From a virus, in the IMG/VR virus record IMGVR_UViG_3300048017_000141: a DNA stretch of 64,000 nucleotides, one strand, 5' to 3'. The notes below the pieces were generated by a model. That model was not told the origin of the DNA. It worked only from the letters and a program-made list of their open reading frames with translations, and searched no databases. Below, one piece after another: positions 1 to 48,379 of this stretch. The translations under genes were made by a program, and so were the position numbers. Position 1 is the stretch's first letter; each line of letters opens with the position of its first letter.

Positions 1-1
1 C

Positions 2-1780
2 GGTAAATGGATGGATCCATCCACAACTTGGGATAGTGAAACTATAATATCAGATCTGCATAATATTACAGAGGGCTCAGGAAGAAAAGCTTGGCTATCA
101 GAGTTTATTGAAAATGCAGATAGTATATTCTCTCCGGAAAATCTTAATAAGGTACAGTCAATATACGGTACAAATGTTAGAATTGCTTTAGAGGATTCTT
201 TGTATAGAATGAAAAATGGCAAAAGTAGACCGGAAGGAACAGATAATCTTACTAATAAATGGATGAACTGGATTAATGGTTCTACTGCGGCAATAATGTT
301 TTTCAATACAAGATCAGCATTGTTACAAACAATATCAGCTATCAACTACTTGAATTGGACTGATAATAATGTATGGACGTCTGCGAAAGCATTTGCCAAT
401 CAGAAACAGTACTGGAGTGACTTCGCTATGATTATCAATTCAGATAAGATGAAGGAAAGAAGATCTGGATTAAAAGCGGATGTAACGCAAGCAGAGATTG
501 CTAATGCAGCCAATAGTACAAAGAGTAAGGCACTCGGTGTTTTATCTTATTTACAAAAGATTGGATTTACACCAACACAAGCAGCAGATAGTTTCTCTAT
601 TGCAATTGGGGGAGCAGCTTTCTATAGAAATAGAGTGAAAACATATCAATCAGAGTATACTGGCTTGGATGCTGATGGAAACTTAAAAAGAAAATATACA
701 GATAAAGAGGCTGAAGATAAAGCTTGGGTAGATTTTTCTAATATAACGGACCAATCAATGCAATCGGCCGATCCTTTATATGTTTCTAAGCAGCAAACGA
801 CCTCATTAGGGCGCCTTGTTTTGGCTTTTGGTAATACTCCAATGCAATATAATAGATTGATTAAAAAAGCAGCCCTAGACATAGCTAATAAGCGCGGAAA
901 CTTTGGAACGAATATATCAAAAATAATTTATTATGGAGCTTTGCAAAACTTTATATTCTCAGCATTACAAGCGGCATTATTCTTACCATTCGAAGATGAA
1001 AAAGATGAAGAAGAATTAGCAGCGATGTCTAAAGAAGATAGAAAAGCGTATGAGAAGTTGATCAAAAAGCAGAATGATAAAACAATAGGTATTGCAAATG
1101 GTATGGTTGATACCGTATTAAGAGGTTCTGGTATTACTGGAGCGCTTATATCAACAATAAAAAATACCATAATAGAATACAATAAGCAAGAGGAAAGAGA
1201 AATGTTTGCCGATCATGCGCAGACTTTGTTAACCGCATCCGGTATATCTCCATCAATAAGCTCAAAAGCTAGAAAAGTGTACGGTATTATTCGAATGAAT
1301 AAATTTGAGAAGGACGTAATAGCCGAAAGAGGGTGGGAAGTTACAAGAGACGGAAGATTGAACCTTAGTCCTAATTACAATATCGCTGGTAATGCTGTTG
1401 TTGCTACAACCAATATACCCTTAGACAGGTTAGTTGAAAAAGTCAACAACGTTGCTGAAGCGCTAGATTCTAGAAACAATAAAATTCAGAGAATAGCTTT
1501 ATCTTTAGGATGGAAGCCGTGGGAATTAAATGTTAAGAATGAAGAAAGCGAGCAAATAAAAGCAAAAGCAAAAGAAGTAAGAAAGAAAGAAGGCGTTGAA
1601 AAATCTATACAAACCAGAGCTGATAAGAAAGAAGCTGAAGAAGCTGCTTATAAAGCAATGTCTCCACAAGAGAAAATGGTTTACCGTAGACAAAAAAGCG
1701 AAAAGCAACTGCAAAAAAGAAAAGAAAAAGCACAACGCAAATTGCAAGAAATACGCAAGAAAAGGAAAATGGGAGAATAA
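2..1780 (+). CDS. C-terminal part of a large virion-associated (polyvalent-type) protein, 5' truncated by the window edge
   Basis: The frame is open from base 2, and the ATG at 11 is only the first Met in the track. The tail is very basic and Lys/Glu-rich. It is on the same strand as the giant ORF that runs off the 3' window edge. Confidence 0.6.
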   Translation, partial: GKWMDPSTTWDSETIISDLHNITEGSGRKAWLSEFIENADSIFSPENLNKVQSIYGTNVRIALEDSLYRMKNGKSRPEGTDNLTNKWMNWINGSTAAIMFFNTRSALLQTISAINYLNWTDNNVWTSAKAFANQKQYWSDFAMIINSDKMKERRSGLKADVTQAEIANAANSTKSKALGVLSYLQKIGFTPTQAADSFSIAIGGAAFYRNRVKTYQSEYTGLDADGNLKRKYTDKEAEDKAWVDFSNITDQSMQSADPLYVSKQQTTSLGRLVLAFGNTPMQYNRLIKKAALDIANKRGNFGTNISKIIYYGALQNFIFSALQAALFLPFEDEKDEEELAAMSKEDRKAYEKLIKKQNDKTIGIANGMVDTVLRGSGITGALISTIKNTIIEYNKQEEREMFADHAQTLLTASGISPSISSKARKVYGIIRMNKFEKDVIAERGWEVTRDGRLNLSPNYNIAGNAVVATTNIPLDRLVEKVNNVAEALDSRNNKIQRIALSLGWKPWELNVKNEESEQIKAKAKEVRKKEGVEKSIQTRADKKEAEEAAYKAMSPQEKMVYRRQKSEKQLQKRKEKAQRKLQEIRKKRKMGE

Positions 1781-12289: not shown

Positions 12290-13057
12290 TTATAGGAAAT
12301 CAAGGACTTGTGAGTGATCAACGGAATTTATTAATTTGTTAACCGCTTGCTTTTTTAGTTCAGATATACGAACATATGAGCTAGCTCCTTCTATTCCTAA
12401 TTTATCAGCAATCTCGTTTGCTGAATACTTATCACCGTCTAAACCATAACTTAGCTTTAATACTTCTGATTCTCGTTCGTTTAGATATTTATCAATTATA
12501 GAACTTAAAAAAGTGTGCATGATTGTTATATTATATGGTTCCGATCTATCCTCAATCTCATAAAATGAAATACCAATAGTGTCTTCGTTCTCAGTTAATA
12601 CTTGGTCGTCAATGCTTAAAAATATTGAATTAAAAAACAAAGCTGACATGCTTTCATTCTGACCTCCATCTTTTCTTATCTCATTCAATTTATGTTCCGG
12701 TAATTTTATATTACCACGGTTGATGTCAATAGCTCTTCGTATTGAGCCTTTTATTCTTTTAGATAAAAATGACTTCAATGTTTTTTCTATATCATTAGAA
12801 GCGTTTAATTGAGCAAAATCTAGCTTATCAACAGCATATATTAATCCAATACTTCCCTCCTGTATCAAATCTGTTATGTCCATAACACCCGATGCTTGGT
12901 CTGATGTCGAAAATTTACGAGCAATGTTTTCTACTAATGGTAAAAATTTATTTATAAACTCTGATCTTTCATATTCAGTCCAATCTCTTGGCTTTGGCTG
13001 AGCACTTAAAACATCTTTTTTGTACCTTAAATAATTTTGTAAATTATAATTTTTCAT
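12290..13057 (-). CDS. Phage-encoded sigma-70-family RNA polymerase sigma factor
   Basis: Region 2 reads DLIQEGSIGLIYAVDKLD. The region 4 HTH reads SEVLKLSYGLDG..YSANEIADKLG...ISELKKQAVNKL. Confidence 0.85.
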   Translation of the reverse strand: MKNYNLQNYLRYKKDVLSAQPKPRDWTEYERSEFINKFLPLVENIARKFSTSDQASGVMDITDLIQEGSIGLIYAVDKLDFAQLNASNDIEKTLKSFLSKRIKGSIRRAIDINRGNIKLPEHKLNEIRKDGGQNESMSALFFNSIFLSIDDQVLTENEDTIGISFYEIEDRSEPYNITIMHTFLSSIIDKYLNERESEVLKLSYGLDGDKYSANEIADKLGIEGASSYVRISELKKQAVNKLINSVDHSQVLDFL

Positions 13058-14424: not shown

Positions 14425-14703
14425 TTACTTAAATTTTTCTAATAATTTTTTTATTTCATCTAATTTTAATTGGGCTATGCCTGCTTTTTCATAATCCTCA
14501 TTTTTAATGTATTCATCTAAAAGCATTTTTAAACCTATAAAATTTTGCGTTAGCATTTCATGACTCAACTGTGATTGATCTATGAATGGTGGTGCATTTT
14601 GATAATATACTTTATCAATATCTTGTTGCTTTAAAATTATTCTTTCTACAACAGCTTCTGCAATTCTATTTATATCTTGATCTGACAATTTTAATTTAAA
14701 CAT
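14425..14703 (-). CDS. Hypothetical protein
   Basis: 92-aa ORF in the early arm. Confidence 0.5.
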   Translation of the reverse strand: MFKLKLSDQDINRIAEAVVERIILKQQDIDKVYYQNAPPFIDQSQLSHEMLTQNFIGLKMLLDEYIKNEDYEKAGIAQLKLDEIKKLLEKFK

Positions 14704-14708
14704 ATTTA

Positions 14709-14906
14709 TTATCTTTTATTGTTCGTATTGTTTTTGTATTCTATTATAAAACCTATTGCTACAATTATATTCATTCCGAATGAGGCTATTATCTCATGTA
14801 TATCTTTGTAAACATTAACTGTCAAATGCACATGCCCAACAACCCAAAATGGTATGGATAAGTTGCTAGCGATCCATGTTATTGTGAATATTAAGAATTG
14901 TTTCAT
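14709..14906 (-). CDS. Small membrane protein (two hydrophobic segments)
   Basis: 65 aa containing FLIFTITWIASNL and IIVAIGFII. Confidence 0.5.
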   Translation of the reverse strand: MKQFLIFTITWIASNLSIPFWVVGHVHLTVNVYKDIHEIIASFGMNIIVAIGFIIEYKNNTNNKR

Positions 14907-18345: not shown

Positions 18346-18786
18346 TTATTTATCTTTTAAATGCGCTTTACCAATTTCATAATATTTTTTGTAACCATCA
18401 ACAGCGTCAGCCATTTTGTATTCGTCAGGCATACATTGCGGTGGATCGCAAAAATCTTCAGCGTGTATAGCATGAGGTACTTTAGACAGAATATCACGAC
18501 ACTTAGCAATTGTTAAATGGTGCTTGCTATAACGTCTTGTATATTCAGCGCCTAAAGCTAGCATATATTCATAACACCATAAATAGTTAGCTCTTGATGA
18601 TCTTACCCATACAGCCGATGGATGGTTCATATGTGTTTTCTTGTAAGGCACATCATCAGGGTTGCCGGATAAATGATGTGCTGTGCAAAGCAATTGAGCA
18701 GCCTCTAATACCATTTTTACTACGTGTTTATTGTAGTGTTGTTGTGCGGCTTTTGTTGGATTGCGATCTAAATAAAATATGTTCAT
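18346..18786 (-). CDS. Conserved hypothetical protein (MNIFYLD...HVVKM...AQLL family)
   Basis: 146 aa. I recognise the N-terminal motif as recurrent in phages and large viruses but cannot name a function. Confidence 0.6.
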   Translation of the reverse strand: MNIFYLDRNPTKAAQQHYNKHVVKMVLEAAQLLCTAHHLSGNPDDVPYKKTHMNHPSAVWVRSSRANYLWCYEYMLALGAEYTRRYSKHHLTIAKCRDILSKVPHAIHAEDFCDPPQCMPDEYKMADAVDGYKKYYEIGKAHLKDK

Positions 18787-18801: not shown

Positions 18802-18846
18802 GTTACATTAATATTATCATTTGTTATTCGTGTTTAGACTGTAAGG
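18802..18846 (-). promoter_or_regulatory. Early-gene conserved element, copy 1
   Basis: Gene-sense consensus is TACAG-N7-ACG-N9-TGATAATAWWAWTGTAAC. The core ends 15 nt upstream of the ATG at 18786. Confidence 0.6.
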
Positions 18847-18921
18847 CTTGACTATCTCACACTTAGCTTATATCCAGATACTACCGGGAAATGCCCAGAA
18901 GCGATAAGCACCTTTAATTTG

Positions 18922-18995
18922 TGTCCGCAGCAGGGTTTGAACCTGCGACCTATTGATTATGAGTCAATTGCTCTGACCAGCTGAGCTATGCGGAC
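18922..18995 (-). tRNA. tRNA with anticodon CAT (Met, or Ile2 if lysidine-modified)
   Basis: Hand-folded 74-nt cloverleaf. Acceptor is GTCCGCA/TGCGGAC, D arm GCTC/GAGC and anticodon arm ATTGA-CTCATAA-TCAAT. T arm is GCAGG-TTCAAAC-CCTGC and the discriminator is A. No CCA is encoded. Confidence 0.9.
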
Positions 18996-19161
18996 TAAAA
19001 TGTGTGTTTTTAAATATCCCTAGAACACACAAACTATGCCGACCAACGATTCGGGGTAGCGTCCACGCCAATGTGAATGTACCCAAAGGTATTTTTCATT
19101 TAAACCCACATCTGTAATCTCCATCTTCGATCCATACCCAGCGCTAGGCAGAGGGCTATTG

Positions 19162-19319
19162 TAGTCAGGACAGGATTCGAACCTGTATTTCACGTCTGAA
19201 TTATTACATATTACTTCTTGAGTTCCACTCTCTGTATTGCTTTTGGGTGCTTCCCACGCCTTATACACACATTTATTTTTCATAACACATAATAGCGTTT
19301 ACAATTTCGCCACCTGACT
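19162..19319 (-). tRNA. Class-II (Leu/Ser/Tyr-type) tRNA-like gene interrupted by about 77 nt at the anticodon loop
   Basis: The 7/7 acceptor stem is AGTCAGG (19319-19313) with CCTGACT (19169-19163). The D arm TGGCGAAATTGTAAACGC is Leu-like. ATTAT (19293-19289) pairs with ATAAT (19204-19200). There is a long variable arm (TTCA-GACG-TGAA) and a canonical T arm ACAGG-TTCGAAT-CCTGT. 84 nt sit where a 7-nt loop is expected. Confidence 0.45.
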
Positions 19320-19603
19320 TTATTTAGCACCCTCTTTCTTATTTAATAAGAGTAGGGTCACGTAAGATTAAGTCTTTAATATTTTAGGTGTTATTTTCTG
19401 ACCATCATTACTTGCTGAGAACTCATTTGTGTTGATGATAGACTATTTAAACTATCAAATTTACCCCATTCCTTTCTCAAGGGAACAACACATCTACCAT
19501 TACTGATAGTATCTTTATGTAAATTGTAGTTCTGACTTTCACAAGATTTTACAGACTTTCTACTATTACAATTTACAAAGGTATTCAATGTTTAACCTAT
19601 TTG

Positions 19604-19660
19604 GAACTAGAGAGGGTTCGAACCCTCTTAACCCGTCGGCCGCTTGCCCAGCGCTAGTTC
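19604..19660 (-). other. 57-nt multi-hairpin element (tRNA-minihelix-like, not a canonical tRNA)
   Basis: The outer stem GAACTAG/CTAGTTC encloses a CGCT-GGGCA-AGCG hairpin (minus sense) and the perfect 18-nt palindrome AGAGGGTTCGAACCCTCT (19611-19628). Confidence 0.25.
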
Positions 19661-19798
19661 TTAGTTAATCCTAGGGCCGGTTATTTTCTTTATCCTAGCT
19701 TCAGTTACAACCACAGCGCTACTGTTGGTATCACTTCACGTAACTCCAGCTGATTAACATTAACACGATTGAACGCTGCTCGAGCACTACATGCGGAA

Positions 19799-20173
19799 TC
19801 AAACGTGTATAGCAATACCTGTTTCACAATCATAGATTGCTAATTGTTTATTTGTTTTAGCTAATTTCAAAGCTCTTGTTTTGTTTAATTCACGTACAGA
19901 TACATCTAAGTAGATATTGTCGCCGTCAATCCATGCACCAAGATAATAAACATCTAAACATAATTTATCAATGTTTTCAATTAAAAAGTAATTCAATACA
20001 GTTTTATCAAATTTACTAAGCAATGATCTTGATTCGCAACCTTTAATTGATACCATAAAACCAGTTGTTGGATTAAAATCACCAGTAACAAAGTTATATG
20101 AACCGCCATTATTTTCTAGTATGCTTTCGTAAAATTTATTTATACTCATATTGTTAGTCTTTATTAGGTTCAA
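19799..20173 (-). CDS. Hypothetical protein
   Basis: 124-aa ORF. Confidence 0.55.
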   Translation of the reverse strand: MNLIKTNNMSINKFYESILENNGGSYNFVTGDFNPTTGFMVSIKGCESRSLLSKFDKTVLNYFLIENIDKLCLDVYYLGAWIDGDNIYLDVSVRELNKTRALKLAKTNKQLAIYDCETGIAIHV

Positions 20174-20525
20174 AATAGTTTTCTACATCTGTGACAAAGT
20201 GTCGTATAAATTCATCTTCATCGAATGTTGTATTCATTTCAAGTGAATAGCTATCGCCGTATGATCCATGTAGCTCAGGCTCACAACTTACATAGTCTAG
20301 GAAAGGAACTTCATCTAATAAATCTTTAATTGCCCTTACAATTTTATCCGCAGGATATTCTATTGTAGTTTGTTCTTCAGCAATAGCGCTTAACGATTCA
20401 GTTCTTAACGATGCTAATAGCGCTAATACGTCATCTTTAGTAAACACACTTGAATAATTATTACACACTGTGTCTACTCTTGCATCAAATAATTCGTTTA
20501 TTTTTTTCATGTTGTTTATATCCAT
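20154..20525 (-). CDS. Acidic hypothetical protein
   Basis: 123-aa ORF preceded by element copy 2. Confidence 0.55.
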   Translation of the reverse strand: MDINNMKKINELFDARVDTVCNNYSSVFTKDDVLALLASLRTESLSAIAEEQTTIEYPADKIVRAIKDLLDEVPFLDYVSCEPELHGSYGDSYSLEMNTTFDEDEFIRHFVTDVENYFEPNKD

Positions 20526-20528
20526 TTG

Positions 20529-20574
20529 GTTACATTTATATTATCATTTTGTTATCGTGTTTAGACTGTATAAG
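20529..20574 (-). promoter_or_regulatory. Early-gene conserved element, copy 2
   Basis: The core is 3 nt from the ATG at 20525. Its distal part overlaps the last codons (TYTV-stop) of the upstream gene. Confidence 0.6.
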
Positions 20575-20827
20575 TCAAACCGTATGCTTTAACACTCATT
20601 AATCTATCGATGTTTATTGTACGGTAAGCTCGATCCCCAACTGAGTATACAACAATATTGTTTACTGAAGAAGCGTCGTATAGCATACCTCGCCCACTTA
20701 ATCCGATCCTAGCGCCTAGTCTAGCAACCATTTTTCTTTTACTACCATCTTTTTTTATAAATGTTACGCTAAAGAATTTACCTTCGCTTTTAACAAATTG
20801 TTTGAAATCTTCTACTGTTTTTATCAT
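20561..20827 (-). CDS. Hypothetical protein (small beta-rich, DUF2693-like from memory)
   Basis: 88-aa ORF. Confidence 0.55.
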   Translation of the reverse strand: MIKTVEDFKQFVKSEGKFFSVTFIKKDGSKRKMVARLGARIGLSGRGMLYDASSVNNIVVYSVGDRAYRTINIDRLMSVKAYGLTYTV

Positions 20828-20837
20828 ATTATTATTT

Positions 20838-21041
20838 TTATATATCTTTTTCTATTAATTCTGCAATGTATTCCCATAACTTTAATTCACGCTTAGATGT
20901 CTTTATCATGCTCTCTAAGTGCTCGTCTTCTACTAAACTTTGTCCTAGTCTAAGATCAGTTTGTAAATCCCGTACTTCTATATTTAAGCTGTTTATTTTT
21001 GAAAATGCTTTGTCTCTTGCTCTGTTTTTAATATCTATCAT
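20838..21041 (-). CDS. Hypothetical coiled-coil protein
   Basis: 67-aa ORF. Confidence 0.5.
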   Translation of the reverse strand: MIDIKNRARDKAFSKINSLNIEVRDLQTDLRLGQSLVEDEHLESMIKTSKRELKLWEYIAELIEKDI

Positions 21042-21044
21042 CCC

Positions 21045-21212
21045 TTATGTTATCAATTTAAGTTCGTGTTTTTGTTGTAATTGTATTGCATTGTCATATA
21101 CTATTTGATAAGCGTCACTCATTTTACTAGAGTTAGCATAGTGTACATTTTTTATATTTCTTAACCAAGTGTCAAATCGATCAACTTCTTGCATTGCTTT
21201 ATCTTTACTCAT
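21045..21212 (-). CDS. Small hypothetical protein (55 aa, hand-translated)
   Basis: It fills the gap, with a stop 3 nt before the next start. Confidence 0.4.
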   Translation of the reverse strand: MSKDKAMQEVDRFDTWLRNIKNVHYANSSKMSDAYQIVYDNAIQLQQKHELKLIT

Positions 21213-21213
21213 A

Positions 21214-21429
21214 TTACTGTAATGTTATATTGTTATGATTCCATAAATTCCTAAACGCATGGGTTTTACCTTTGCGAAAAACGCTTTTTTGTTTTACCTG
21301 AACTTTGTTGTATTCAGACTGAGTGAATGGTGTACAAGAACCGTGTATAGCAATCAAGGTTGCTCGGTGGTGTTGATTACGTAACTTACGCAATTCAATT
21401 CTTTCGTTTATTATCTCTGTTGCCGTCAT
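21214..21429 (-). CDS. Hypothetical basic protein
   Basis: 71-aa ORF. Confidence 0.5.
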   Translation of the reverse strand: MTATEIINERIELRKLRNQHHRATLIAIHGSCTPFTQSEYNKVQVKQKSVFRKGKTHAFRNLWNHNNITLQ

Positions 21430-21608
21430 TATTTATTTAGTATATAAGTTAAACCTTTAAAGTTAATGAAGGATGAGATGCCATCAGTCTCGTCTTCGGT
21501 ATTGTAGATACATCCAAAGTTATTAGGTAGGAAGCTTACCATATATCCACGATATAATCTACCGTCGATCATTGCAAAATTGTTTTTTAGGAATTTAATT
21601 TTTTTCAT
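21429..21608 (-). CDS. Small hypothetical protein (59 aa, hand-translated)
   Basis: TAATG stop/start overlap with the next gene. Element copy 3 lies upstream. Confidence 0.45.
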   Translation of the reverse strand: MKKIKFLKNNFAMIDGRLYRGYMVSFLPNNFGCIYNTEDETDGISSFINFKGLTYILNK

Positions 21609-21625
21609 AGTTATATATTTAATTA

Positions 21626-21670
21626 GTTACATTATTATTATCAATTGTTAATCGTATTGTTATTGTAAAT
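21626..21670 (-). promoter_or_regulatory. Early-gene conserved element, copy 3
   Basis: The core ends 17 nt upstream of the ATG at 21608. Confidence 0.6.
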
Positions 21671-21769
21671 GATGCACCGCTTTGAATGCGTATTTAGCAT
21701 TGTATAAGAATTCTTTCTTAAGTGTTAACAGTACTTGTCTTACAAATCTTCTTTCTTTTTTCATTGTGT

Positions 21770-22123
21770 TTAGTTTTTAATTGAGTACTCTAGAATTGTT
21801 TTTCTTGATAGGTAGATCTTACCGTTTTCAGTTGCTTCGTATGGTCTGCCGTGATCATCAACCAACGTACTATCCGTTACGCCGTGGAATTTATCGGATA
21901 ATATATCAAGGTTAGTTTGTAGCGACTCAATATAGTTTTTACTAATGGCATTCCAGTAATCCCAACCTTCAGAGGAGTACCTCCAGCTAAACATACTCTC
22001 TAAGAATAGACTGTCTTTGTTGATTAAGAATGCAAGGTATGCAGAGTCATTTAATCGTAGCGTGTTATCGATCGCTTCACGTTGTTGTGTAGAAGTTAGA
22101 AATTTAAAAGGTACATATTTCAT
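21770..22123 (-). CDS. Hypothetical protein
   Basis: 117-aa ORF. Confidence 0.55.
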   Translation of the reverse strand: MKYVPFKFLTSTQQREAIDNTLRLNDSAYLAFLINKDSLFLESMFSWRYSSEGWDYWNAISKNYIESLQTNLDILSDKFHGVTDSTLVDDHGRPYEATENGKIYLSRKTILEYSIKN

Positions 22124-22137
22124 AGTTATATATTTTA

Positions 22138-22180
22138 GTTACATTATTATTATCGTTTTTTATTCGTGTTAAGATTGTAG
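22138..22180 (-). promoter_or_regulatory. Early-gene conserved element, copy 4
   Basis: The core ends 14 nt upstream of the ATG at 22123. Confidence 0.6.
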
Positions 22181-22192
22181 AACTTCTTTATT

Positions 22193-22483
22193 CTATTTCT
22201 CTTCAAGTGCCAACCAAGCTAATAACTCTTTAATATTATCAAACTCGTATGCTTTGACATGAGGTCCTTGCCCAGTAGCTCTGAAGACATAGTCTTTTAT
22301 TGTAGTGGATGACCAACAATCGAGTAAGTTTGAATAACCGCAATTGCTTAAGCTTACAAATTTATCTTTTTCTTTTTCAATAACTATAGCTTTATGGTTG
22401 CATCCCCAATCAATACCAACAAACGATTTGTTAGTTATATTTTTGAATTCTACTGTACTTACCGCGTTTACTATTTGTTTCAT
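22193..22483 (-). CDS. Hypothetical protein
   Basis: 96-aa ORF. Confidence 0.55.
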   Translation of the reverse strand: MKQIVNAVSTVEFKNITNKSFVGIDWGCNHKAIVIEKEKDKFVSLSNCGYSNLLDCWSSTTIKDYVFRATGQGPHVKAYEFDNIKELLAWLALEEK

Positions 22484-22487
22484 ATCT

Positions 22488-22688
22488 TTATTTTTGTGGT
22501 TTTTCTAAATTATACTTTATCTCCGCTTGAACATCTTCAATTGCTCTAATTATATGGGCACATTGCCGTGTCATATGGTAATCTTTCAATCTCACCGCAT
22601 CACTTAAGATGTCCACTTGCTCTTCGTATAAATGATCTAATGCCACTTGAATTACATTTGCTTCTCTTTTGTTTATTTGTATCTTCAT
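22488..22688 (-). CDS. Hypothetical protein
   Basis: 66-aa ORF. Confidence 0.5.
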   Translation of the reverse strand: MKIQINKREANVIQVALDHLYEEQVDILSDAVRLKDYHMTRQCAHIIRAIEDVQAEIKYNLEKPQK

Positions 22689-22693
22689 GATTA

Positions 22694-22813
22694 TTATTTG
22701 TTAGTTACACTATTATTATCAATTATCTCGTCATTTTCACGAACAATTAGTATGTATCGATCGTCCCCAGAACACCACACTATCCCTCTACTTTCTACTA
22801 CCGTATATTTCAT
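22694..22813 (-). CDS. Possible 39-aa protein (MKYTVVESRG...)
   Basis: Hand-translated. Its 3' third is encoded by element copy 5. Confidence 0.3.
   Translation of the reverse strand: MKYTVVESRGIVWCSGDDRYILIVRENDEIIDNNSVTNK
22704..22745 (-). promoter_or_regulatory. Early-gene conserved element, copy 5
   Basis: The core ends 15 nt upstream of the ATG at 22688. Confidence 0.55.
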
Positions 22814-22829
22814 ATATTTACTTGTTATT

Positions 22830-22872
22830 GTTACACTTATATTATCATTTCACTATCGTATTATTATTGCAT
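22830..22872 (-). promoter_or_regulatory. Early-gene conserved element, copy 6
   Basis: The core ends 16 nt upstream of the ATG at 22813. Confidence 0.55.
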
Positions 22873-22934
22873 GAAGGTCATACTTCATTTGCTCAATTTA
22901 AAGTAGTCACTGATATAACCACCTATTTCTCAAC

Positions 22935-22985
22935 GTTTTACTCAATTTTCATCATTTTACTTACGATTTGTAGTTAGACTTGTAA
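22935..22985 (-). pseudogene. Decayed copy of the early element plus a remnant MKYD... start
   Basis: The gene-sense sequence TTACAAGTCTAACTACAAATCGTAAGTAAAATGATGAAAATTGAGTAAAAC aligns with the consensus. The downstream ATGAAGTATGAC... ORF is only 11 codons, whereas MKYT... follows copy 6. Confidence 0.35.
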
Positions 22986-23007
22986 TTTCACTTATAATTT
23001 GTTATTT

Positions 23008-23056
23008 GTTACATATATATTATCAAAAGGATCTCGTGTTATTACTGTATGCTATA
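23008..23056 (-). promoter_or_regulatory. Early-gene conserved element, copy 7
   Basis: Good match to the consensus. No intact ORF follows directly downstream. Confidence 0.5.
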
Positions 23057-23114
23057 CACGAAACCAATACGGTTCGGTGAAAAACACCTTGGCGACCCCT
23101 TTTTCGTATAAAAG

Positions 23115-23158
23115 TGCGACGTTAGGGTCTTAATTATATATAGTAGGCTAATGTCACA
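23115..23158. repeat. Conserved ~45-nt box, copy A (TGCGACG-TAG...GGCTAATGTCACA)
   Basis: It aligns with copy B at 25197..25241. Shared segments are TGCGACG, TAG, an AT-rich TATA-like centre and GGCTAATGTCACA. Confidence 0.7.
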
Positions 23159-23255
23159 CTTTTTTGTAGGACGGAGTCTACTCTTCCGACGCTATTTCAA
23201 AGTCAGGCCCTCTGTCTACCGTTGCTATACACCCGTGGTAGAGTGTATAACTAGG

Positions 23256-23492
23256 TTACTTTTTAACTATTTTCTCAACTGTTACTACATATGTGGTATC
23301 ATTAGATGTTGTTGTGTATATGTTAACTGATTGATGTAATTCTTCATCTTCAATGCAGTCATCCCCGATTAATTCGTACGTTGGTTGATCATTTCTACCG
23401 ATATTGTACCCTGCGATCAGCATAACCGCTACGGCTACTGATATTAATCCTACTAAGGAGATCGCTTCTAGTGTTTCTGTTTTAATTTTCAT
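23256..23492 (-). CDS. Small membrane-anchored protein
   Basis: 78 aa with the hydrophobic segment AISLVGLISVAVAVMLIAGY. Confidence 0.5.
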   Translation of the reverse strand: MKIKTETLEAISLVGLISVAVAVMLIAGYNIGRNDQPTYELIGDDCIEDEELHQSVNIYTTTSNDTTYVVTVEKIVKK

Positions 23493-23506
23493 GGTGATTT
23501 GTTTTA

Positions 23507-23556
23507 GTTACATTTATATTATCATTAGATCGTCGTATTCACTCTGTATGTATAGC
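23507..23556 (-). promoter_or_regulatory. Early-gene conserved element, copy 8
   Basis: The core ends 14 nt upstream of the ATG at 23492. Confidence 0.6.
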
Positions 23557-23562
23557 AACGGC

Positions 23563-23919
23563 TTATTCAGCCGCTACTACTTCAAGGTTTTCGATAGTTG
23601 CTAGATGTCTAACATTAGCTGGCATATCGGTTGATTGTGACCAGTATTCACGTTTGATCCAGCAAGGCATGATTGATAGCTTAGGAAGCATTACATTCAA
23701 CACGTCGTCGTGATTGTACGTTACTTTTTGATTTTTGTTGTTGACAAATGTGATCACTTGATTACGACCCATCCACGATTTACGTACTACAAAGTTAGCT
23801 CGTTCGATTGGAGGGTAGATCAATGCTAATTCCTCCGGAGTTAATTTAGCGATAGCTTCACTTAATAATTCTTTGCTAGTTTTAACTACTTCTTCTGATG
23901 TTTGTTTTTTAGTTGCCAT
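23563..23919 (-). CDS. Hypothetical protein
   Basis: 118-aa ORF. Confidence 0.55.
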   Translation of the reverse strand: MATKKQTSEEVVKTSKELLSEAIAKLTPEELALIYPPIERANFVVRKSWMGRNQVITFVNNKNQKVTYNHDDVLNVMLPKLSIMPCWIKREYWSQSTDMPANVRHLATIENLEVVAAE

Positions 23920-23936
23920 AATATTATTATTTATTT

Positions 23937-23978
23937 GTTACATTATTATTATCAATTACTCGTCGTATTTATACCGAA
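23937..23978 (-). promoter_or_regulatory. Early-gene conserved element, copy 9
   Basis: The core ends 17 nt upstream of the ATG at 23919. Confidence 0.6.
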
Positions 23979-24094
23979 AGCATATTCGGTATATGGTCAA
24001 CGAACTGTTTTAATTCAGATAGTACTAAAGGATTTTTGGTTTTACTGTATTCCTTTATTAATTTTTTTACCTCAGATTGAATAAATTTTTCCAT
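23969..24094 (-). CDS. Possible 41-aa protein
   Basis: Hand-translated as MEKFIQSEVKK... Element copy 10 lies upstream. Confidence 0.35.
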   Translation of the reverse strand: MEKFIQSEVKKLIKEYSKTKNPLVLSELKQFVDHIPNMLSV

Positions 24095-24112
24095 AATATT
24101 TATATTTAATTA

Positions 24113-24158
24113 GTTACATTATTATTATCAATTACTTTCCGTATTTATACTGTAAGCC
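24113..24158 (-). promoter_or_regulatory. Early-gene conserved element, copy 10
   Basis: The core ends 18 nt upstream of the ATG at 24094. Confidence 0.6.
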
Positions 24159-24310
24159 TAGGGTTTTGGATCTAGGCATTGCTCAATTATTGATTGCATT
24201 GTGGTCAAAGTATCTTGATCATTTGGATTTTGTAATAGGTAATCAAATAATACTTTTTCAAGGGTATCAAAGTCTTTTTTAGTAATTTGGATTGTTTTTG
24301 TAGTAGACAT
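24158..24310 (-). CDS. Possible 50-aa protein
   Basis: Hand-translated as MSTTKTIQITKKDFD... Element copy 11 lies upstream. Confidence 0.4.
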   Translation of the reverse strand: MSTTKTIQITKKDFDTLEKVLFDYLLQNPNDQDTLTTMQSIIEQCLDPKP

Positions 24311-24342
24311 AGTATTTAATTTAATTGTTTATATTTATTTTA

Positions 24343-24388
24343 ATTACACTTATATTATCAATTGATCGTCGTATTCATTCTGTAAAGG
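24343..24388 (-). promoter_or_regulatory. Early-gene conserved element, copy 11
   Basis: ATTACAC variant of the core, 32 nt upstream of the ATG at 24310. Confidence 0.55.
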
Positions 24389-24389
24389 G

Positions 24390-24614
24390 TTATAATTTAA
24401 ACTCTTTACCAAATGCTCTATGTTCCCAATAATCCTCACCTTGTCTTGTGTGCGAGAAATTACACATTGCGTCAATTGGAACGTTATTTTGAATACATAA
24501 CTCCGTATGATCATACCCCAATTGTAACCTCGTCTCTTCAACAAGATCCAAGTAATCCTCACGACACAATTCTTTAACTCTTACTAACTTTGTTATTCTT
24601 ACATTTGATTCCAT
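24390..24614 (-). CDS. Hypothetical protein (first protein gene of the early arm)
   Basis: 74-aa ORF preceded by element copy 12. It is preferred over the overlapping 24350..24562 ORF. Confidence 0.5.
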   Translation of the reverse strand: MESNVRITKLVRVKELCREDYLDLVEETRLQLGYDHTELCIQNNVPIDAMCNFSHTRQGEDYWEHRAFGKEFKL

Positions 24615-24629
24615 AATAATTGTTGTTTT

Positions 24630-24676
24630 AATTACACTTATATTATCATAACCACCCCGTATTAATACTGTAAAGG
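24630..24676 (-). promoter_or_regulatory. Early-gene conserved element, copy 12
   Basis: The core ends 15 nt upstream of the ATG at 24614. Confidence 0.6.
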
Positions 24677-24719
24677 GTATATTATTAAATTAAATTTGCA
24701 AGTAATATAACTTATTTTA

Positions 24720-24772
24720 CTTACACTTATATTATCAGGATCACCTCGTGTCCTTACTGTATGCTATACACT
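24720..24772 (-). promoter_or_regulatory. Early-gene conserved element, copy 13 (tandem with copy 12)
   Basis: It lies 43 nt upstream of copy 12 with no ORF between them. Confidence 0.5.
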
Positions 24773-25152
24773 CCGCTTCGCTCCGTGTATGATCGCTGTA
24801 TCGCAACGTATTTGGTTAGGCTACGTTACACCAGTGTTGTACACAATCGATACAACACACACAACGTATGTGATCCGTAACAAGCAACCAACGCAACACT
24901 GCAGCCGATTCCCGAGCAAAAGCCTAGATATTCACGCAAAATCAAACCAAAAGGCAAAACTTTTTCAACAATTAGTTTAAAAGGTAGGGGGCTGGGTGAA
25001 ATCAAATGTGTTTTCCTTTTAGAAAAGTAAGTTTAAAACTAGTATATAACCCCTTATATCTATATATCTAATAACAAATTTACATTTACCTTATTATTAC
25101 AATGCAATTATGGAATAATTAACAAATTTTTGCTTTCAGCTTTTCAATTTTT

Positions 25153-25171
25153 CAAAAAAAACCCTTCGGGT
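25153..25171 (-). terminator. Possible minus-strand intrinsic terminator
   Basis: In minus sense, the ACCC-GAAG-GGT stem-loop is followed by eight T. The stem is short. Confidence 0.35.
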
Positions 25172-25196
25172 ATATACTTTATGTGTAGCCTTGGAA

Positions 25197-25241
25197 TGCG
25201 ACGATAGCTAGTTATAATATAAGTAGTGGGCTAATGTCACA
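25197..25241. repeat. Conserved ~45-nt box, copy B
   Basis: The sequence is TGCGACGATAGCTAGTTATAATATAAGTAGTGGGCTAATGTCACA. It lies about 60 nt upstream of the first plus-arm gene. Confidence 0.7.
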
Positions 25242-25305
25242 TTATTAAACAATGTAAAATCCTATGGATATACGTGAGTATAAAAGGTATAATAAATGTA
25301 TTTAT

Positions 25306-45141: not shown

Positions 45142-45161
45142 GACTAAACTAAATGTAAATT

Positions 45162-45193
45162 TTACCCTCGTTGTACTGACGGGGGTAATTTTT
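45162..45193 (+). terminator. Intrinsic terminator after the capsid gene
   Basis: TTACCCTCG pairs with CGGGGGTAA (9 bp including one G-U) around a 9-nt loop, followed by TTTTT. Confidence 0.7.
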
Positions 45194-45235
45194 ACTCTTT
45201 TACATTATTAAAAAATTATTAAATTATATTATATT

Positions 45236-46144: not shown

Positions 46145-46168
46145 TACGTAATAATAGTAATATAAAAG

Positions 46169-46192
46169 CGGCAGTATTACGTAATACTGCCG
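46169..46192 (+). terminator. Perfect 24-nt palindrome (CGGCAGTATTAC/GTAATACTGCCG)
   Basis: Read directly from the sequence. It is followed by an AT-rich tract without a clean T run. Confidence 0.5.
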
Positions 46193-46219
46193 ATTATATA
46201 TTATAACAAAATAAACAAA

Positions 46220-47143: not shown

Positions 47144-47149
47144 TAGCAA

Positions 47150-48373: not shown

Positions 48374-48379
48374 AATTAA

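What the first reader, a model, noticed from the sequence alone, without database searches (positions are those of the whole stretch)
18802..24772. Thirteen copies of a ~45-bp element with fixed internal spacing precede early genes
**Seen.** The plus-strand cores GTTACAYTWWWATTATCA start at 18802, 20529, 21626, 22138, 22704, 22830, 23008, 23507, 23937, 24113, 24343, 24630 and 24720.
- In gene (minus) sense the consensus is TACAG-N7-ACG-N9-TGATAATAWWAWTGTAAC.
- The core ends 3-32 nt (mostly 14-18 nt) before an ATG.
- The distal TACAG part often overlaps the last codons of the previous gene.
- No copy was noticed outside 18.8-24.8 kb.

**Established knowledge.** The Bacteroidota housekeeping promoter is TTG/TTTG near -33 with TAnnTTTG near -7. 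This element does not match that. Its GATAAT/TAATAT part looks like a proteobacterial-type -10.

**Inference.** These are phage-specific early promoters giving very short leaders. They could be read by a modified host RNAP, by the phage sigma factor (12290..13057), or, speculatively, by a virion-delivered polymerase activity. Operator or RNA-processing sites are alternatives.
Basis: partly seen in the sequence, partly recalled or inferred. Interest (0 to 1): 0.7.

Follow-up and report, generated by a model that had tools for sequence, protein, structure and literature searches.

The report
Phage-specific early promoters, possible injected sigma
A 42-bp sequence repeated 13 times in front of the first genes of an uncultured Bacteroidota-type phage is most likely a private promoter that the host's normal machinery would not recognise, and the phage carries two sigma-factor-like candidates to read it, one of them inside a giant protein encoded in the virion gene block.

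Summary
There are 12 full copies and one half copy of TACAG-N7-ACG-N9-TGATAATAWWAWTGTAAC. All are in gene sense, at 18802-24761, just upstream of small ORFs, and score 46-58 bits against about 12 for shuffles. A weak 14th copy lies at 14697-14738.

The element defines a clade of uncultured 45-68 kb phages. In 28 related loci a relaxed pattern occurs 122 times on the gene strand and never on the other. No bacterial chromosome carries it.

ORF start codons sit either at element positions 36-40, which is 5-9 nt after the invariant GATAAT, or at positions 56-62. So GATAAT behaves as a -10 element. Transcripts should be leaderless or have leaders of about 20 nt.

The element does not fit the Bacteroidota TTTG/TAnnTTTG consensus. 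I found no phage RNA polymerase.

I found two sigma-type candidates:
- the free 255-aa sigma;
- a sigma region-2-like domain inside the 2,866-aa giant protein that ends the virion module.

The domain is supported by profile hits to solved sigma factors (E = 1e-3) and by a predicted fold for which 49 of the top 50 PDB matches are sigma2 domains.

I conclude that these are phage-specific promoters read by host core polymerase with a phage sigma-family factor. Which factor reads them is unresolved, and transcription start sites are unmapped.

The parts
24720..24761 (-). Element copy 1, the most upstream (TACAGTAAGGACACGAGGTGATCCTGATAATATAAGTGTAAG). It lies in tandem 89 nt upstream of copy 2, with no ORF between them.
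   Evidence: (50.8 bits)
24631..24672 (-). Element copy 2. The ATG of ORF 24390-24614 lies 16 nt after the core.
   Evidence: (51.4 bits)
24343..24384 (-). Element copy 3. The ATG of ORF 24158-24310 lies 32 nt after the core.
   Evidence: (54.9 bits)
24113..24154 (-). Element copy 4. The ATG of ORF 23969-24094 lies 18 nt after the core.
   Evidence: (54.4 bits)
23937..23978 (-). Element copy 5. The distal block is TTCGG instead of TACAG. It precedes ORF 23563-23919 and overlaps the previous ORF by 10 nt.
   Evidence: (52.8 bits)
23507..23548 (-). Element copy 6, preceding ORF 23256-23492. A strong hairpin lies just upstream (z = -5.0).
   Evidence: (55.0 bits)
23008..23049 (-). Element copy 7. 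It is followed by about 125 nt with no ORF of 30 aa or more, so it may drive a small RNA or a micro-ORF.
   Evidence: (50.0 bits)
22830..22871 (-). Element copy 8. The distal block is TGCAA. It precedes ORF 22694-22813.
   Evidence: (46.5 bits)
22704..22745 (-). Half copy. Only the downstream core TGATAATAATAGTGTAAC (22704-22721) is kept, and the upstream part lies inside the previous ORF. It precedes ORF 22488-22688.
   Evidence: (20.9 bits; leave-one-out -2.7)
22138..22179 (-). Element copy 10 (CGATAAT variant), preceding ORF 21770-22123.
   Evidence: (47.7 bits)
21626..21667 (-). Element copy 11, preceding ORF 21429-21608.
   Evidence: (48.5 bits)
20529..20570 (-). Element copy 12, preceding ORF 20154-20510/20525.
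   Evidence: (51.7 bits)
18802..18843 (-). Element copy 13. It lies downstream of tRNA-Met (18921-18995) and precedes ORF 18346-18786, which has a weak match to pyrimidine-dimer glycosylase.
   Evidence: (58.5 bits)
14697..14738 (-). Weak copy of the leaderless type (TACAAAAACAATACGAACAATAAAAGATAATAAATATG). Its ATG at 14703 starts ORF 14425-14703, the first gene of the block that ends with the free sigma gene.
   Evidence: (16.7 bits)
21033..21082 (-). Doubtful degenerate copy. It scores 11.8 bits, about the maximum seen in shuffles.
12290..13057 (-). Free-standing phage sigma-70-family factor (255 aa, regions 2 and 4). It is candidate reader A of the element, or alternatively the factor for later genes.
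57502..64000 (+). N-terminal 2,166 aa of the giant protein, which is 2,866 aa in the 99%-identical contig L152. It is the last gene of the virion-module arm. The ORF runs off the window end and resumes at window position 1.
1..1780 (+). C-terminal ~593 aa of the same giant protein. The window is a circular permutation with about 322 nt missing between position 64000 and position 1.
60937..61245 (+). Sigma region-2-like (sigma2) domain inside the giant protein. It is candidate reader B.
60229..60243 (+). HEFLH, an HExxH motif that is invariant in four diverged homologues. It suggests a zincin-like peptidase, the kind proposed to process polyvalent proteins.
   Evidence: PMC5512222

Best explanation
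**What the element is.** The 42-bp elements are phage-specific promoters for the first genes of the leftward arm. They have a sigma-70-type layout.
- The invariant GATAAT (element positions 26-31, counting from the T of TACAG) acts as the -10 element. It has the A and T expected at -11 and -7.
- TACAr (positions 1-5) lies 20 bp upstream, roughly where Bacteroidota polymerase reads its -33 element.
- An extra block, AAyACGA (positions 10-16), lies between them.

**Where transcription starts.** It starts about 5-9 nt after GATAAT, at or inside the conserved RTGTAAC.
- The 12 full copies in the window would give A-rich leaders of about 20 nt.
- The weak copy at 14697-14738, and many copies in relatives, would give leaderless mRNAs.

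**Who reads it.** The enzyme is host core RNA polymerase carrying a phage-encoded sigma-family specificity factor, not the host housekeeping sigma. There are two candidates.
- The sigma2-like domain in the 2,866-aa giant protein of the virion module. If that protein is packaged and ejected, the domain would be present at time zero.
- The free 255-aa sigma.

**Shown.** The repeat family, its orientation, its clade distribution, the start-codon geometry, the lack of a host-consensus match, and the existence of both sigma-like proteins.

**Inferred.** Promoter activity, the start-site position, early timing, packaging of the giant protein, and which factor binds.
For: **The repeat is real and directional.**
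- 13 copies, all in gene sense, at 46-58 bits against 11.7 or less in shuffles.
- They sit in intergenic gaps of 35-79 nt, each just upstream of an ORF.

**It marks a phage clade.**
- More than 25 IMG/VR contigs carry up to 11 co-oriented copies in the stretch fetched.
- In 28 loci found through the free sigma (441 kb), AYACG-N9-nGATART occurs 122 times on the sigma strand and 0 times on the other, almost always 1-10 kb upstream of sigma.
- Weight-matrix scores tend to be lower in loci whose sigma is more diverged.
- GenBank relatives without the sigma lack the element. One of them has a different repeated early motif.
- The full 41-nt pattern occurs in only 4 short MAG contigs among 185,579 species genomes.

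**Start-codon geometry.**
- ORF start codons are bimodal: positions 36-40 (42 copies, peak at 38, which is 7 nt after the T of GATAAT) and positions 56-62.
- 36 of the 42 have an in-frame stop inside the element, and the N-termini are conserved between phages.
- TACAA..AAyACGA..GATAATA is shared by both classes, whereas TGTAAC occurs only in the leadered class.

**It is not the host consensus.**
- TAnnTTTG is not enriched in the window: 109 found against 97.6 expected.

**Sigma candidates.**
- The free sigma has regions 2 and 4.
- A profile of the giant-protein segment hits solved sigma factors: 8b3z_A at E = 1.1e-3, then SigE, WhiG, T4 gp55, SigK, SigH, FliA, SigA and RpoS.
- Among 822 six-frame ORFs, that profile's best non-self hit is region 2 of the phage's own sigma, at E = 1.5e-3.
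- An AF2 model of the 123-aa segment (pLDDT 81, pTM 0.70) gives 49 sigma2 domains among its top 50 PDB matches, with rmsd 2.4-4 A for most of the best-ranked ones and probability up to 0.90.
Against: - No transcript 5' ends are available, so promoter activity and start site are inferred.
- Individual Foldseek E-values are 0.5-3. Pfam did not call Sigma70_r2 on the segment, and a four-sequence hhalign gave E = 0.1. The sigma2 assignment rests on convergent moderate signals.
- No sigma4-like domain was detected in the giant protein, yet the element has conserved upstream blocks.
- Packaging of the giant protein is not shown for this phage. It is inferred from gene position and from the 'structural protein' annotation of the elemo gene in the same position, gp18. 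That protein has no detectable similarity to this one.
- A sigma-like domain can be a decoy rather than a sigma. PhyR is a known example (listing).
- The free sigma's operon, and in L081 the sigma gene itself, sit behind copies of the element. This argues against the free sigma as sole reader but fits autoregulation.
- The sigma-element co-occurrence is confounded by shared ancestry.
Confidence: 0.55

Rival explanations
1. These are ordinary early promoters read by the unmodified host holoenzyme, using the housekeeping sigma or a host alternative sigma. The phage sigma and the sigma-like domain would serve later stages or host shut-off.
For: - Most lytic phages without their own polymerase start with host-sigma promoters (general knowledge).
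- The spacing of TACAr and GATAAT (20 bp) resembles the Bacteroidota -33/-7 spacing (general knowledge).
- TAWWAWTG at positions 31-38 matches TAnnTTTG at 4-5 of its 6 specified positions.
Against: - There is no TTG/TTTG where a -33 element should be. A conserved A replaces a consensus T in the best -7 alignment.
- That alignment would put the start site after position 42, downstream of the start codons of 42 leaderless-type copies.
- The element has about 40-50 bits of information, none of it host-like.
- It is absent from bacterial chromosomes.
- Its weight-matrix score tends to fall as the phage lineage diverges.
- A relative of similar type uses an entirely different repeated early motif.
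Confidence: 0.15
2. The elements are promoters for a phage-encoded RNA polymerase, either virion-delivered as in N4 or crAss-like phages, or T7-like. The polymerase would be too diverged to recognise by sequence.
For: - A giant protein ends the virion module, as in N4 and crAss-like phages.
- Long conserved promoters are typical of single-subunit polymerases.
- AATACGAC resembles part of the T7 promoter, and a DLAGR motif (a DxxGR-type string) is conserved in the giant protein. These last two rest on my recall of T7 and N4 motifs.
- A relative has hairpin-capable early motifs.
Against: - No DFDxD-type motif occurs in any of the six frames.
- No T7-type motif A- or B-like pattern (motif C was checked only in the 1,119-aa protein) was found in the giant or the 1,119-aa protein.
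- The giant protein has no Pfam, PHROG or PDB-profile hit.
- The one recognisable transcription module is a sigma2 domain, which implies use of the host core enzyme.
- The element has no conserved hairpin.
- The genome is essentially complete in the window, and no other polymerase candidate was found among the ORFs screened.
Confidence: 0.07
3. The elements are not promoters. They would be protein-binding operators, RNA-level signals (processing sites, or ribosome-loading leaders using the ATG-TAA start-stop), or recombination and module-boundary repeats.
For: - The distance to the ATG is constant at 14-18 nt.
- 81 of 121 leadered copies carry a start codon followed directly by TAA at positions 36-41.
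- Some copies overlap the end of the previous ORF.
Against: - Conservation extends about 35 nt upstream of any plausible RNA feature, into blocks shared with leaderless copies.
- There is no conserved secondary structure and no Rfam hit.
- The element has no dyad symmetry of the kind expected for a dimeric repressor.
- 16 of 121 copies lose the start codon but keep TAA.
- In 42 copies the ORF begins inside the element, and with 13 near-identical copies and no other repeated promoter-like motif found in this arm, something here has to start transcription.
Confidence: 0.08

Closest known systems
Phage sigma cascades on host core polymerase (SPO1 gp28 and gp33/34; T4 gp55 with the late promoter TATAAATA)
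   Same: A phage-encoded sigma-family protein redirects host core polymerase to promoters that the host sigma does not read. T4 gp55 is a sigma2-only factor that reads an extended -10-like element, and it is among the profile and fold hits of the giant-protein domain.
   Different: In those systems (from general knowledge) the phage sigma is made after infection and serves middle or late genes, while the earliest genes use host-sigma promoters. Here the private promoter sits on the first genes. One candidate factor is embedded in a 2,866-aa protein of the virion module. The element has two further conserved upstream blocks.
N4-like virion RNA polymerase with hairpin early promoters
   Same: A podovirus-type genome with a giant protein at the end of the virion module and a few kilobases of small early genes, each preceded by a phage-specific motif.
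   Different: The giant protein has no polymerase homology or motifs, and the element has no hairpin. It carries a sigma2-like domain instead, which implies that the host enzyme does the catalysis.
crAss-like phage phi14:2: virion RNAP gp66 for early genes and host-sigma-type middle promoters
   Same: A phage whose relatives infect Flavobacteriia, with a large protein encoded in the virion-gene block that is proposed here to be needed for early transcription.
   Different: phi14:2 early transcripts had no detectable common upstream motif, and gp66 carries DFDID (10.1101/2020.03.07.982082). Here there is a strong common motif and no DFDxD.
Bacteroidota housekeeping promoter (-33 TTTG, -7 TAnnTTTG)
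   Same: Overall two-block geometry with about 20 bp between the upstream block and the -10/-7 block. Genes lack Shine-Dalgarno sequences and have A-rich leaders.
   Different: The sequences of both blocks differ, there is an additional AAyACGA block, and the start-site position implied by leaderless copies is incompatible with reading TAWWAWTG as the -7 box.
Polyvalent proteins of phages and conjugative elements (Iyer et al. 2017, PMC5512222)
   Same: A very large multidomain protein at the end of the virion module, with an invariant HExxH zincin-type motif. That paper proposes that such proteins are injected with the DNA, are processed by zincin-like peptidases, and can 'jump-start transcription'.
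   Different: The word 'sigma' does not occur in that paper, so a sigma2 module would be a new cargo type. Injection is untested here.
Sigma-like mimic domains (PhyR of the alphaproteobacterial general stress response)
   Same: A sigma-like fold embedded in a protein that is not itself a sigma factor (papers listed).
   Different: PhyR titrates an anti-sigma factor and does not bind promoters (general knowledge). If the giant protein's domain worked as a decoy for the host core enzyme, it would shut off host transcription rather than read the element.

Membership tests
Sigma-70-family-dependent promoter | A -10-like hexamer with A at -11 and T at -7, placed about 5-9 nt upstream of the transcription start. 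| tested here: inconclusive
   GATAAT is invariant in the window copies. In 42 related copies the ORF start codon lies 5-9 nt after it, and 36 of these have an in-frame stop inside the element. This bounds the start site but does not map it.
Sigma-70-family-dependent promoter | An upstream (-35/-33) element at a fixed spacing. | tested here: inconclusive
   TACAr lies 20 bp upstream of GATAAT and is conserved across the clade (T 0.80, A 0.87, C 0.86, A 0.97). There is also an extra AAyACGA block. No binding data exist.
Sigma-70-family-dependent promoter | A cognate sigma factor is available. | tested here: met
   The free sigma has regions 2 and 4. The giant protein has a sigma2-like domain. 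Which one binds the element, if either, cannot be tested with these tools.
Bacteroidota housekeeping (sigma-A) promoter | TTG/TTTG near -33 and TAnnTTTG near -7. | tested here: not met
   No TTG lies at the required distance. The best -7 alignment has a conserved A where the consensus has T, and it would place the start downstream of leaderless start codons. The motif is not enriched in the window.
N4-type virion-RNAP promoter | A conserved DNA hairpin (5-7 bp stem, 3-nt loop) in the promoter. | tested here: not met
   The alignment shows no conserved inverted repeat within the element. Upstream hairpins occur at only 2 of 13 copies.
N4-type / T7-type single-subunit RNAP system | A phage gene with T7-like polymerase motifs (T/DxxGR, A, B, C). 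| tested here: not met
   There are no motif A- or B-like patterns (C was searched only in the 1,119-aa protein) and no Pfam, PHROG or PDB homology in the giant or the 1,119-aa protein. Only a lone DLAGR string was found.
crAss-like virion RNAP system | A large virion protein with a DFDxD catalytic motif. | tested here: not met
   A six-frame scan for D[FY]D[GIVA]D found nothing.
Sigma-70 family, domain sigma2 (giant-protein segment) | Sequence similarity to sigma region 2. | tested here: met
   A 21-sequence profile searched against PDB sequences gives 8b3z_A sigma at E = 1.1e-3, and about 20 of the 34 hits are sigma factors. The top two hits are designed repeat proteins and are artefacts. 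The phage's own sigma region 2 is hit at E = 1.5e-3. Pfam did not call the domain.
Sigma-70 family, domain sigma2 (giant-protein segment) | The sigma2 helical fold. | tested here: met
   The AF2 model has pLDDT 81 and pTM 0.70. In the PDB search 49 of the top 50 matches are sigma2 domains, with rmsd 2.4-4 A for most of the best-ranked ones and TM up to 0.69 on the isolated SigE domain. Individual E-values are only 0.5-3.
Sigma-70 family (giant-protein segment) | Binding to the core polymerase clamp helices and recognition of the -10 element. | not testable with these tools
   This needs biochemistry or modelling of the complex with the host beta-prime subunit.
Polyvalent (injected multidomain) proteins | A giant multidomain protein with a zincin-like HExxH peptidase motif, encoded in the virion module. 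| tested here: met
   The ORF is 2,866 aa and is the last gene of the structural arm. HEFLH is invariant in four homologues that are 25-60% identical.
Polyvalent (injected multidomain) proteins | Packaged in the virion and delivered with the DNA. | not testable with these tools
   The only support is positional analogy and the 'structural protein' annotation of elemo gp18, which shares no detectable sequence similarity.
Structured RNA element or processing site | A conserved secondary structure or a known RNA family. | tested here: not met
   Rfam finds only the tRNA. No conserved pairing is visible in the alignment.

The most novel reading that the evidence does not exclude
The 2,866-aa giant protein is a polyvalent virion protein that is ejected with the DNA. 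Its sigma2-like module, perhaps released by the protein's own HExxH peptidase, loads onto host core RNA polymerase and directs it to the TACAr-AAyACGA-GATAAT promoters at time zero. This would be a virion-delivered sigma factor, a third route to immediate-early transcription beside host-sigma promoters and injected polymerases. The free 255-aa sigma, itself expressed from a copy of the element, would then take over or serve later genes.
Probability: 0.3. Interest if true: 0.85.

Novelty: new variant of a known kind. Interest (0 to 1): 0.66.

Why it matters
**What is known.** Phages are known to start infection in two ways. They use promoters that the host sigma already reads, or they inject their own RNA polymerase, as N4, phiKZ and crAss-like phages do.

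**What differs here.** The first genes carry a long private promoter that the host consensus does not explain, and no polymerase gene is present. The genome holds a free sigma, and a sigma2-like domain sits inside a giant protein encoded in the virion gene block.

**If the giant protein delivers the specificity factor.**
- It would be a new infection strategy.
- It would be a new cargo class for polyvalent proteins.

**Value of the element regardless of mechanism.**
- It gives a ready marker (AYACG-N9-nGATAAT, strictly strand-specific) for annotating early regions and gene starts.
- It flags apparently leaderless genes in a widespread group of uncultured aquatic Bacteroidota-type phages.
- It gives a defined promoter and factor pair that could be tested in vitro.

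Tried and rejected
**DNA similarity to GenBank phages.** Only the tRNA-Met matched.

**Cultured or GenBank relatives as test beds.** The element is absent from MW202828.1 (first 50 kb scanned) and elemo (first 50 kb scanned). Only the late half of Maribacter phage Panino was fetched, and it was not scanned.

**Hidden polymerase.**
- Motif scans found nothing useful.
- Pfam, PHROG and PDB searches of the giant protein and of its four-member profile found nothing.
- The profile of the conserved domain downstream of the sigma2-like part found nothing.
- The 1,119-aa protein has a Gly/Ser/Thr/Asn-rich, repetitive composition that I read as fibre-like; it is not a polymerase.

**First structure attempt.** The 461-aa multidomain model gave no significant PDB or viral match. 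Sigma factors only floated near the top of the list.

**First statistical test of sigma-likeness.** hhalign of a four-sequence alignment against the phage sigma gave E = 0.1, and Pfam found nothing. Only the 21-sequence profile and the single-domain fold gave clear answers.

**E. coli-type promoter and terminator scan.** It was uninformative for the elements.

**Hairpins upstream of the elements as general terminators.** Only 2 of 13 are notable.

**ATG-TAA 'start-stop' as the reason for the TGTAAC conservation.** This is suggestive (81 of 121), but 16 copies keep TAA without a start codon. I left it as a curiosity.

**A TACGTAATA late motif.** It is not enriched.

**Context of a 525-aa homologue (P0022).** The contig is frameshift-ridden and uninformative.

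**Literature.** I found nothing on this phage group's promoters or on a packaged sigma.

Full report
**1. The observation**

The exact core GTTACAYTWWWATTATCA occurs 8 times, always on the + strand, against 0.00 expected in shuffles. Allowing one mismatch recovers all 13 listed sites and nothing else within 18.8-24.8 kb. One coordinate is 24631 rather than 24630.

Read in gene (minus) sense, 12 copies share cTTACAGTAT.AAtACGA-N8-TGATAATAtaAaTGTAACtAAaA. Copy 22704 keeps only the downstream 18 bp.

A 50-nt weight matrix scores the full copies at 46-58 bits (leave-one-out 39-54). The best score in 20 shuffled windows was 11.7. The same scan found two further sites:
- a weak same-strand copy at 14697-14738 (16.7 bits);
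- a borderline site at 21033-21082.

Each copy sits in a short intergenic gap. The core ends 14-18 nt before an ATG in 10 cases and 32 nt before it in one. Two copies (24720 and 23008) have no ORF of 30 aa or more behind them. Overlap with the previous ORF occurs in 4 of 10 testable cases.

**2. The genome around it**

The window is a phage.
- The leftward arm (24.8 to 1.9 kb) runs from small ORFs, through a tRNA-Met, to a sigma factor, Erf, an exonuclease, primase-helicase, ThyA, MazG and ribonucleotide reductase.
- The rightward arm carries a fibre-like 1,119-aa protein, GroEL, terminase, portal, virion proteins and a giant ORF.

The terminase and portal are 63/51% identical to MW202828.1 (an uncultured podovirus from Manatee Spring). 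They are 45/41% identical to Flavobacterium elemo phages. The portal is 44% identical to that of Maribacter phage Panino and 26-34% to those of Cellulophaga and Tenacibaculum podophages. Genes lack Shine-Dalgarno sequences. A Bacteroidota, probably flavobacterial, host is therefore likely but not shown.

The giant ORF starts at 57502, runs off the window end and resumes at window 1-1780. In a 99%-identical contig it is 2,866 aa and is followed by the same reductase gene. The window is therefore a circular permutation lacking about 322 nt, and the genome is essentially complete.

**3. The element defines a phage clade**

A scan of IMG/VR with the core found many contigs of 45-68 kb with multiple co-oriented full-length copies, up to 11 in the stretch fetched.

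Loci retrieved through the free sigma (28 loci, 53-71% identity, 441 kb) contain the relaxed pattern AYACG-N9-nGATART as follows:
- 122 times on the sigma strand and 0 times on the other strand;
- almost all 1-10 kb upstream of sigma.

Weight-matrix scores tend to be lower in loci whose sigma is more diverged. The most diverged members keep ACG-N9-(C/A/G)GATAAT with altered flanks.

Neither MW202828.1 (first 50 kb scanned) nor elemo (first 50 kb scanned) has the element, and neither has a detectable sigma. MW202828.1 instead carries 11 copies of a different motif, TAATCGGTGTCGTTAACGACACAA. It contains a perfect 16-bp palindrome and sits at the same place relative to its early ATGs.

The full 41-nt pattern occurs in only four short MAG contigs among 185,579 species genomes. 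Five of its seven matches are on one contig of a Sphingobacteriales MAG. The element is thus phage property, not a host promoter type.

**4. Geometry: GATAAT behaves as a -10 element**

I collected 270 non-redundant ACG-N9-nGATAAT elements and located the first ATG that opens an ORF of 30 aa or more. Positions are counted from the T of TACAG, and they are bimodal (recount).
- 41-42 elements have the start codon at positions 36-40: 9 at position 36, 20 at 38 and 10 at 40.
- 121-128 elements have it at about positions 50-66, with the peak at 56-62.

In the first class, 36 of 42 have an in-frame stop inside the element and 29 have no alternative start. The N-termini are conserved between phages, for example MTKKEIQMLADLIFD, MTEDEIQRLADLIFD and MKENEIEKLAQLLFD. 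These are real gene starts.

A start codon cannot precede the transcription start, so the start must lie at or before positions 36-40. Position 38 is 7 nt after the last T of GATAAT (positions 26-31). From established knowledge of sigma-70-type promoters, that is the canonical distance from the -7 T to +1. GATAAT also has the two critical bases, A at -11 and T at -7.

The upstream blocks (TACAA, AAyACGA, GATAATA) are shared by both classes, whereas TGTAAC is confined to the leadered class. That fits TGTAAC being initially transcribed sequence.

The window's weak copy at 14697-14738 is of the leaderless type. Its ATG at 14703 opens the first gene of the block that ends with the free sigma. In L081 the sigma gene itself begins at such an ATG.

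**5. It is not the host consensus**

The Bacteroidota housekeeping consensus is TTG/TTTG near -33 and TAnnTTTG near -7.
- The element has no TTG at the required distance.
- The best -7-like alignment (TAWWAWTG, positions 31-38) has a conserved A where the consensus has T. It would also place the start after position 42, downstream of the leaderless start codons.
- TAnnTTTG is not enriched in the window: 109 found against 97.6 expected.

**6. Who could read it**

*No polymerase was found.*
- There is no DFDxD-type motif in six frames and no T7-like motif A or B pattern (motif C was searched only in the 1,119-aa protein).
- The giant protein gives no Pfam, PHROG or PDB hit, either alone or as a four-member profile.
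- The element has no conserved hairpin.

*Two sigma-type candidates exist.*

(a) The free 255-aa protein has sigma-70 regions 2 and 4 and matches SigA, SigB, RpoS and FliA-type factors.

(b) The giant protein carries a sigma2-like domain at aa ~1146-1248 counted from the ATG at 57502, which is window 60937-61245.
- I noticed a stretch resembling sigma region 2 (…IPYIAKFDPAKNNSLYGYINAQYANRMRAALK…). In homologues it reads …KFDGRGTLYGYINGRISFRIKDMLK…. Early tests were negative or weak.
- A homologue search gave 35 relatives. A 21-sequence profile of the segment, searched against all PDB sequences, returned sigma factors almost exclusively after two designed-repeat artefacts. The hits were 8b3z_A (E = 1.1e-3, aligned to its region 2), SigE, WhiG, T4 gp55, SigK, SigH, FliA, SigA and RpoS.
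- Against 822 six-frame ORFs of this phage and its relatives, the best non-self hit of the profile was region 2 of the phage's own sigma, at E = 1.5e-3.
- An AlphaFold2 model of the 123-aa segment (pLDDT 81, pTM 0.70) gave 49 sigma2 domains among its top 50 PDB matches. Most of the best-ranked matches have rmsd of 2.4-4 A over 85-100 columns, TM reached 0.69 on the isolated SigE domain, and probability reached 0.90. Individual E-values were only 0.5-3.

I regard the sigma2-like domain as established at moderate confidence by convergent evidence. Its function is not established.

The giant protein also has an invariant HExxH (HEFLH, 60229-60243). Polyvalent proteins are giant multidomain proteins thought to be injected with phage DNA. 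They are proposed to be processed by zincin-like peptidases and to 'jump-start transcription'. The survey describing them never mentions sigma (PMC5512222).

The giant proteins of MW202828.1 and elemo show no similarity to this one and no hit to the sigma2 profile.

**7. Weighing the readers**

For a phage-encoded factor in general:
- the element is long, private and drifts with the phage lineage;
- it fails the host consensus;
- it co-occurs with both sigma-type genes.

For the free sigma:
- it is a complete sigma with region 4, which suits a promoter with a conserved upstream block.

Against the free sigma as sole reader:
- the elements begin at the very head of the arm;
- the sigma gene lies about 6-12 kb downstream of them, behind a copy of the same element;
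- it would therefore need a separate bootstrap promoter.

For the giant-protein module:
- if the protein is packaged, as the last gene of the virion module and as polyvalent proteins are thought to be, the factor is present at time zero.

Against the giant-protein module:
- packaging is untested;
- no sigma4-like part was detected;
- a sigma-like domain could equally be a decoy that blocks the host core enzyme.

My estimates:

| Claim | Probability |
|---|---|
| The elements are promoters | ~0.85 |
| They are read through a phage sigma-family factor | ~0.55-0.6 |
| Reader is the giant-protein module | ~0.3 |
| Reader is the free sigma | ~0.3 |
| Reader is the host sigma alone | ~0.15 |
| Reader is an unrecognised phage polymerase | ~0.07 |
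| Not a promoter (operator, RNA signal or recombination repeat) | ~0.08 |

**8. Comparison and novelty**

Repeated private promoters in phage early regions are a known kind of feature. Examples are T7-like, N4-like, phiKZ, and the SPO1 and T4 sigma cascades. This case differs in four ways:
- a sigma-type architecture with three conserved upstream and core blocks;
- placement on the first genes of a phage that has no polymerase;
- apparent leaderless starts;
- a sigma2-like module inside a giant protein of the virion module.

In the searchable literature I found no description of this phage group's promoters or of a packaged sigma. In crAss-like phi14:2, by contrast, early transcripts had no common upstream motif. 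I class the finding as a new variant of a known kind. The injected-sigma reading, if true, would be close to a new category.

**9. Limits**

- No transcript data exist, so timing ('early') is inferred from gene content and position.
- The host is inferred from relatives.
- The sigma-element co-occurrence is confounded by common descent.
- Collection scans were capped, so the counts are lower bounds.

Noticed in passing
window 25191-25300 (+): Two unique plus-strand sites TATAATAWWWGT lie at 25213 and 25288, at the head of the rightward arm. Each has an E. coli-like -35: TTGGAA-16-TATAAT and TGGATA-17-TATAAT. Their -10 and downstream part resembles the early element's core. The 25213 site sits inside an inverted repeat GYGAC..TATAAT..GTCRC, which is also present in relatives L131 and L139 on the strand opposite the early elements.
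   Followed up: partly
window 24765-25260: The roughly 500-nt stretch between the two divergent arms is largely free of confident genes (only short ORFs of about 60 aa overlap it) and appears richer in G+C, with CA-rich runs. MW202828.1 has odd ACGCGAC-type direct repeats at the equivalent place (L121 42978-43191). This could be a genome end, a packaging site or a replication origin.
   Followed up: partly
L121 (MW202828.1) 43733-49891: The closest GenBank relative has 11 copies of a different early-gene motif, TAATCGGTGTCGTTAACGACACAA, which contains a perfect 16-bp palindrome. The copies lie 15-20 nt upstream of ATGs. This phage has a 3,859-aa giant protein unrelated in sequence to the window's giant protein, and no detectable sigma.
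   Followed up: partly
window 22875-23003 and 23053-23255 (-): Element copy 23008 is followed by about 125 nt, and preceded by about 200 nt, without any ORF of 30 aa or more. The upstream stretch is richer in G+C. These could be small RNAs or micro-ORFs. Rfam finds nothing there.
   Followed up: partly
window 57502-64000 plus 1-1780 (+): The window is a circular permutation. The giant ORF crosses the window ends with about 322 nt missing, as judged from the 99%-identical contig IMGVR_UViG_3300012667_000434. The C-terminal ~500 aa are the most conserved part of the protein and have no recognisable family.
   Followed up: partly
element positions 36-41 in window copies and related loci: In 81 of 121 leadered copies the conserved RTGTAA reads as a start codon (ATG, GTG or TTG) followed directly by TAA. 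This start-stop would lie at or near the predicted 5' end, 15-18 nt before the real ATG. Another 16 copies keep TAA without a start codon, so its significance is unclear.
   Followed up: partly
L081, and L124/L125/L126 about 1-1.2 kb upstream of sigma: In L081 the free sigma gene begins at the ATG of a leaderless-type element (MKKYNIQNYVRYK...). In several other relatives, and in the window, a weak copy heads the operon that contains sigma.
   Followed up: yes
window 18921-18995 (-): A tRNA-Met (CAT anticodon) sits between early-element copies. It is 89.7% identical to the tRNA-Met of Flavobacterium elemo phages, and it is the only DNA-level match to any GenBank phage.
   Followed up: yes
L159/L160 (JAGVEE010000375.1): A 20-kb contig binned into a Sphingobacteriales MAG carries five full-length copies of the element. 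It is probably a mis-binned or co-binned phage contig, and it gives a weak hint about the host.
   Followed up: no
window 23548-23590 (-): A strong hairpin (GTAGTAGCGGCTGAATAAGCCGTTGCTAT, -18.9 kcal/mol, z = -5.0) lies immediately upstream of element copy 23507. A weaker one lies upstream of copy 24113. Most copies have none.
   Followed up: yes
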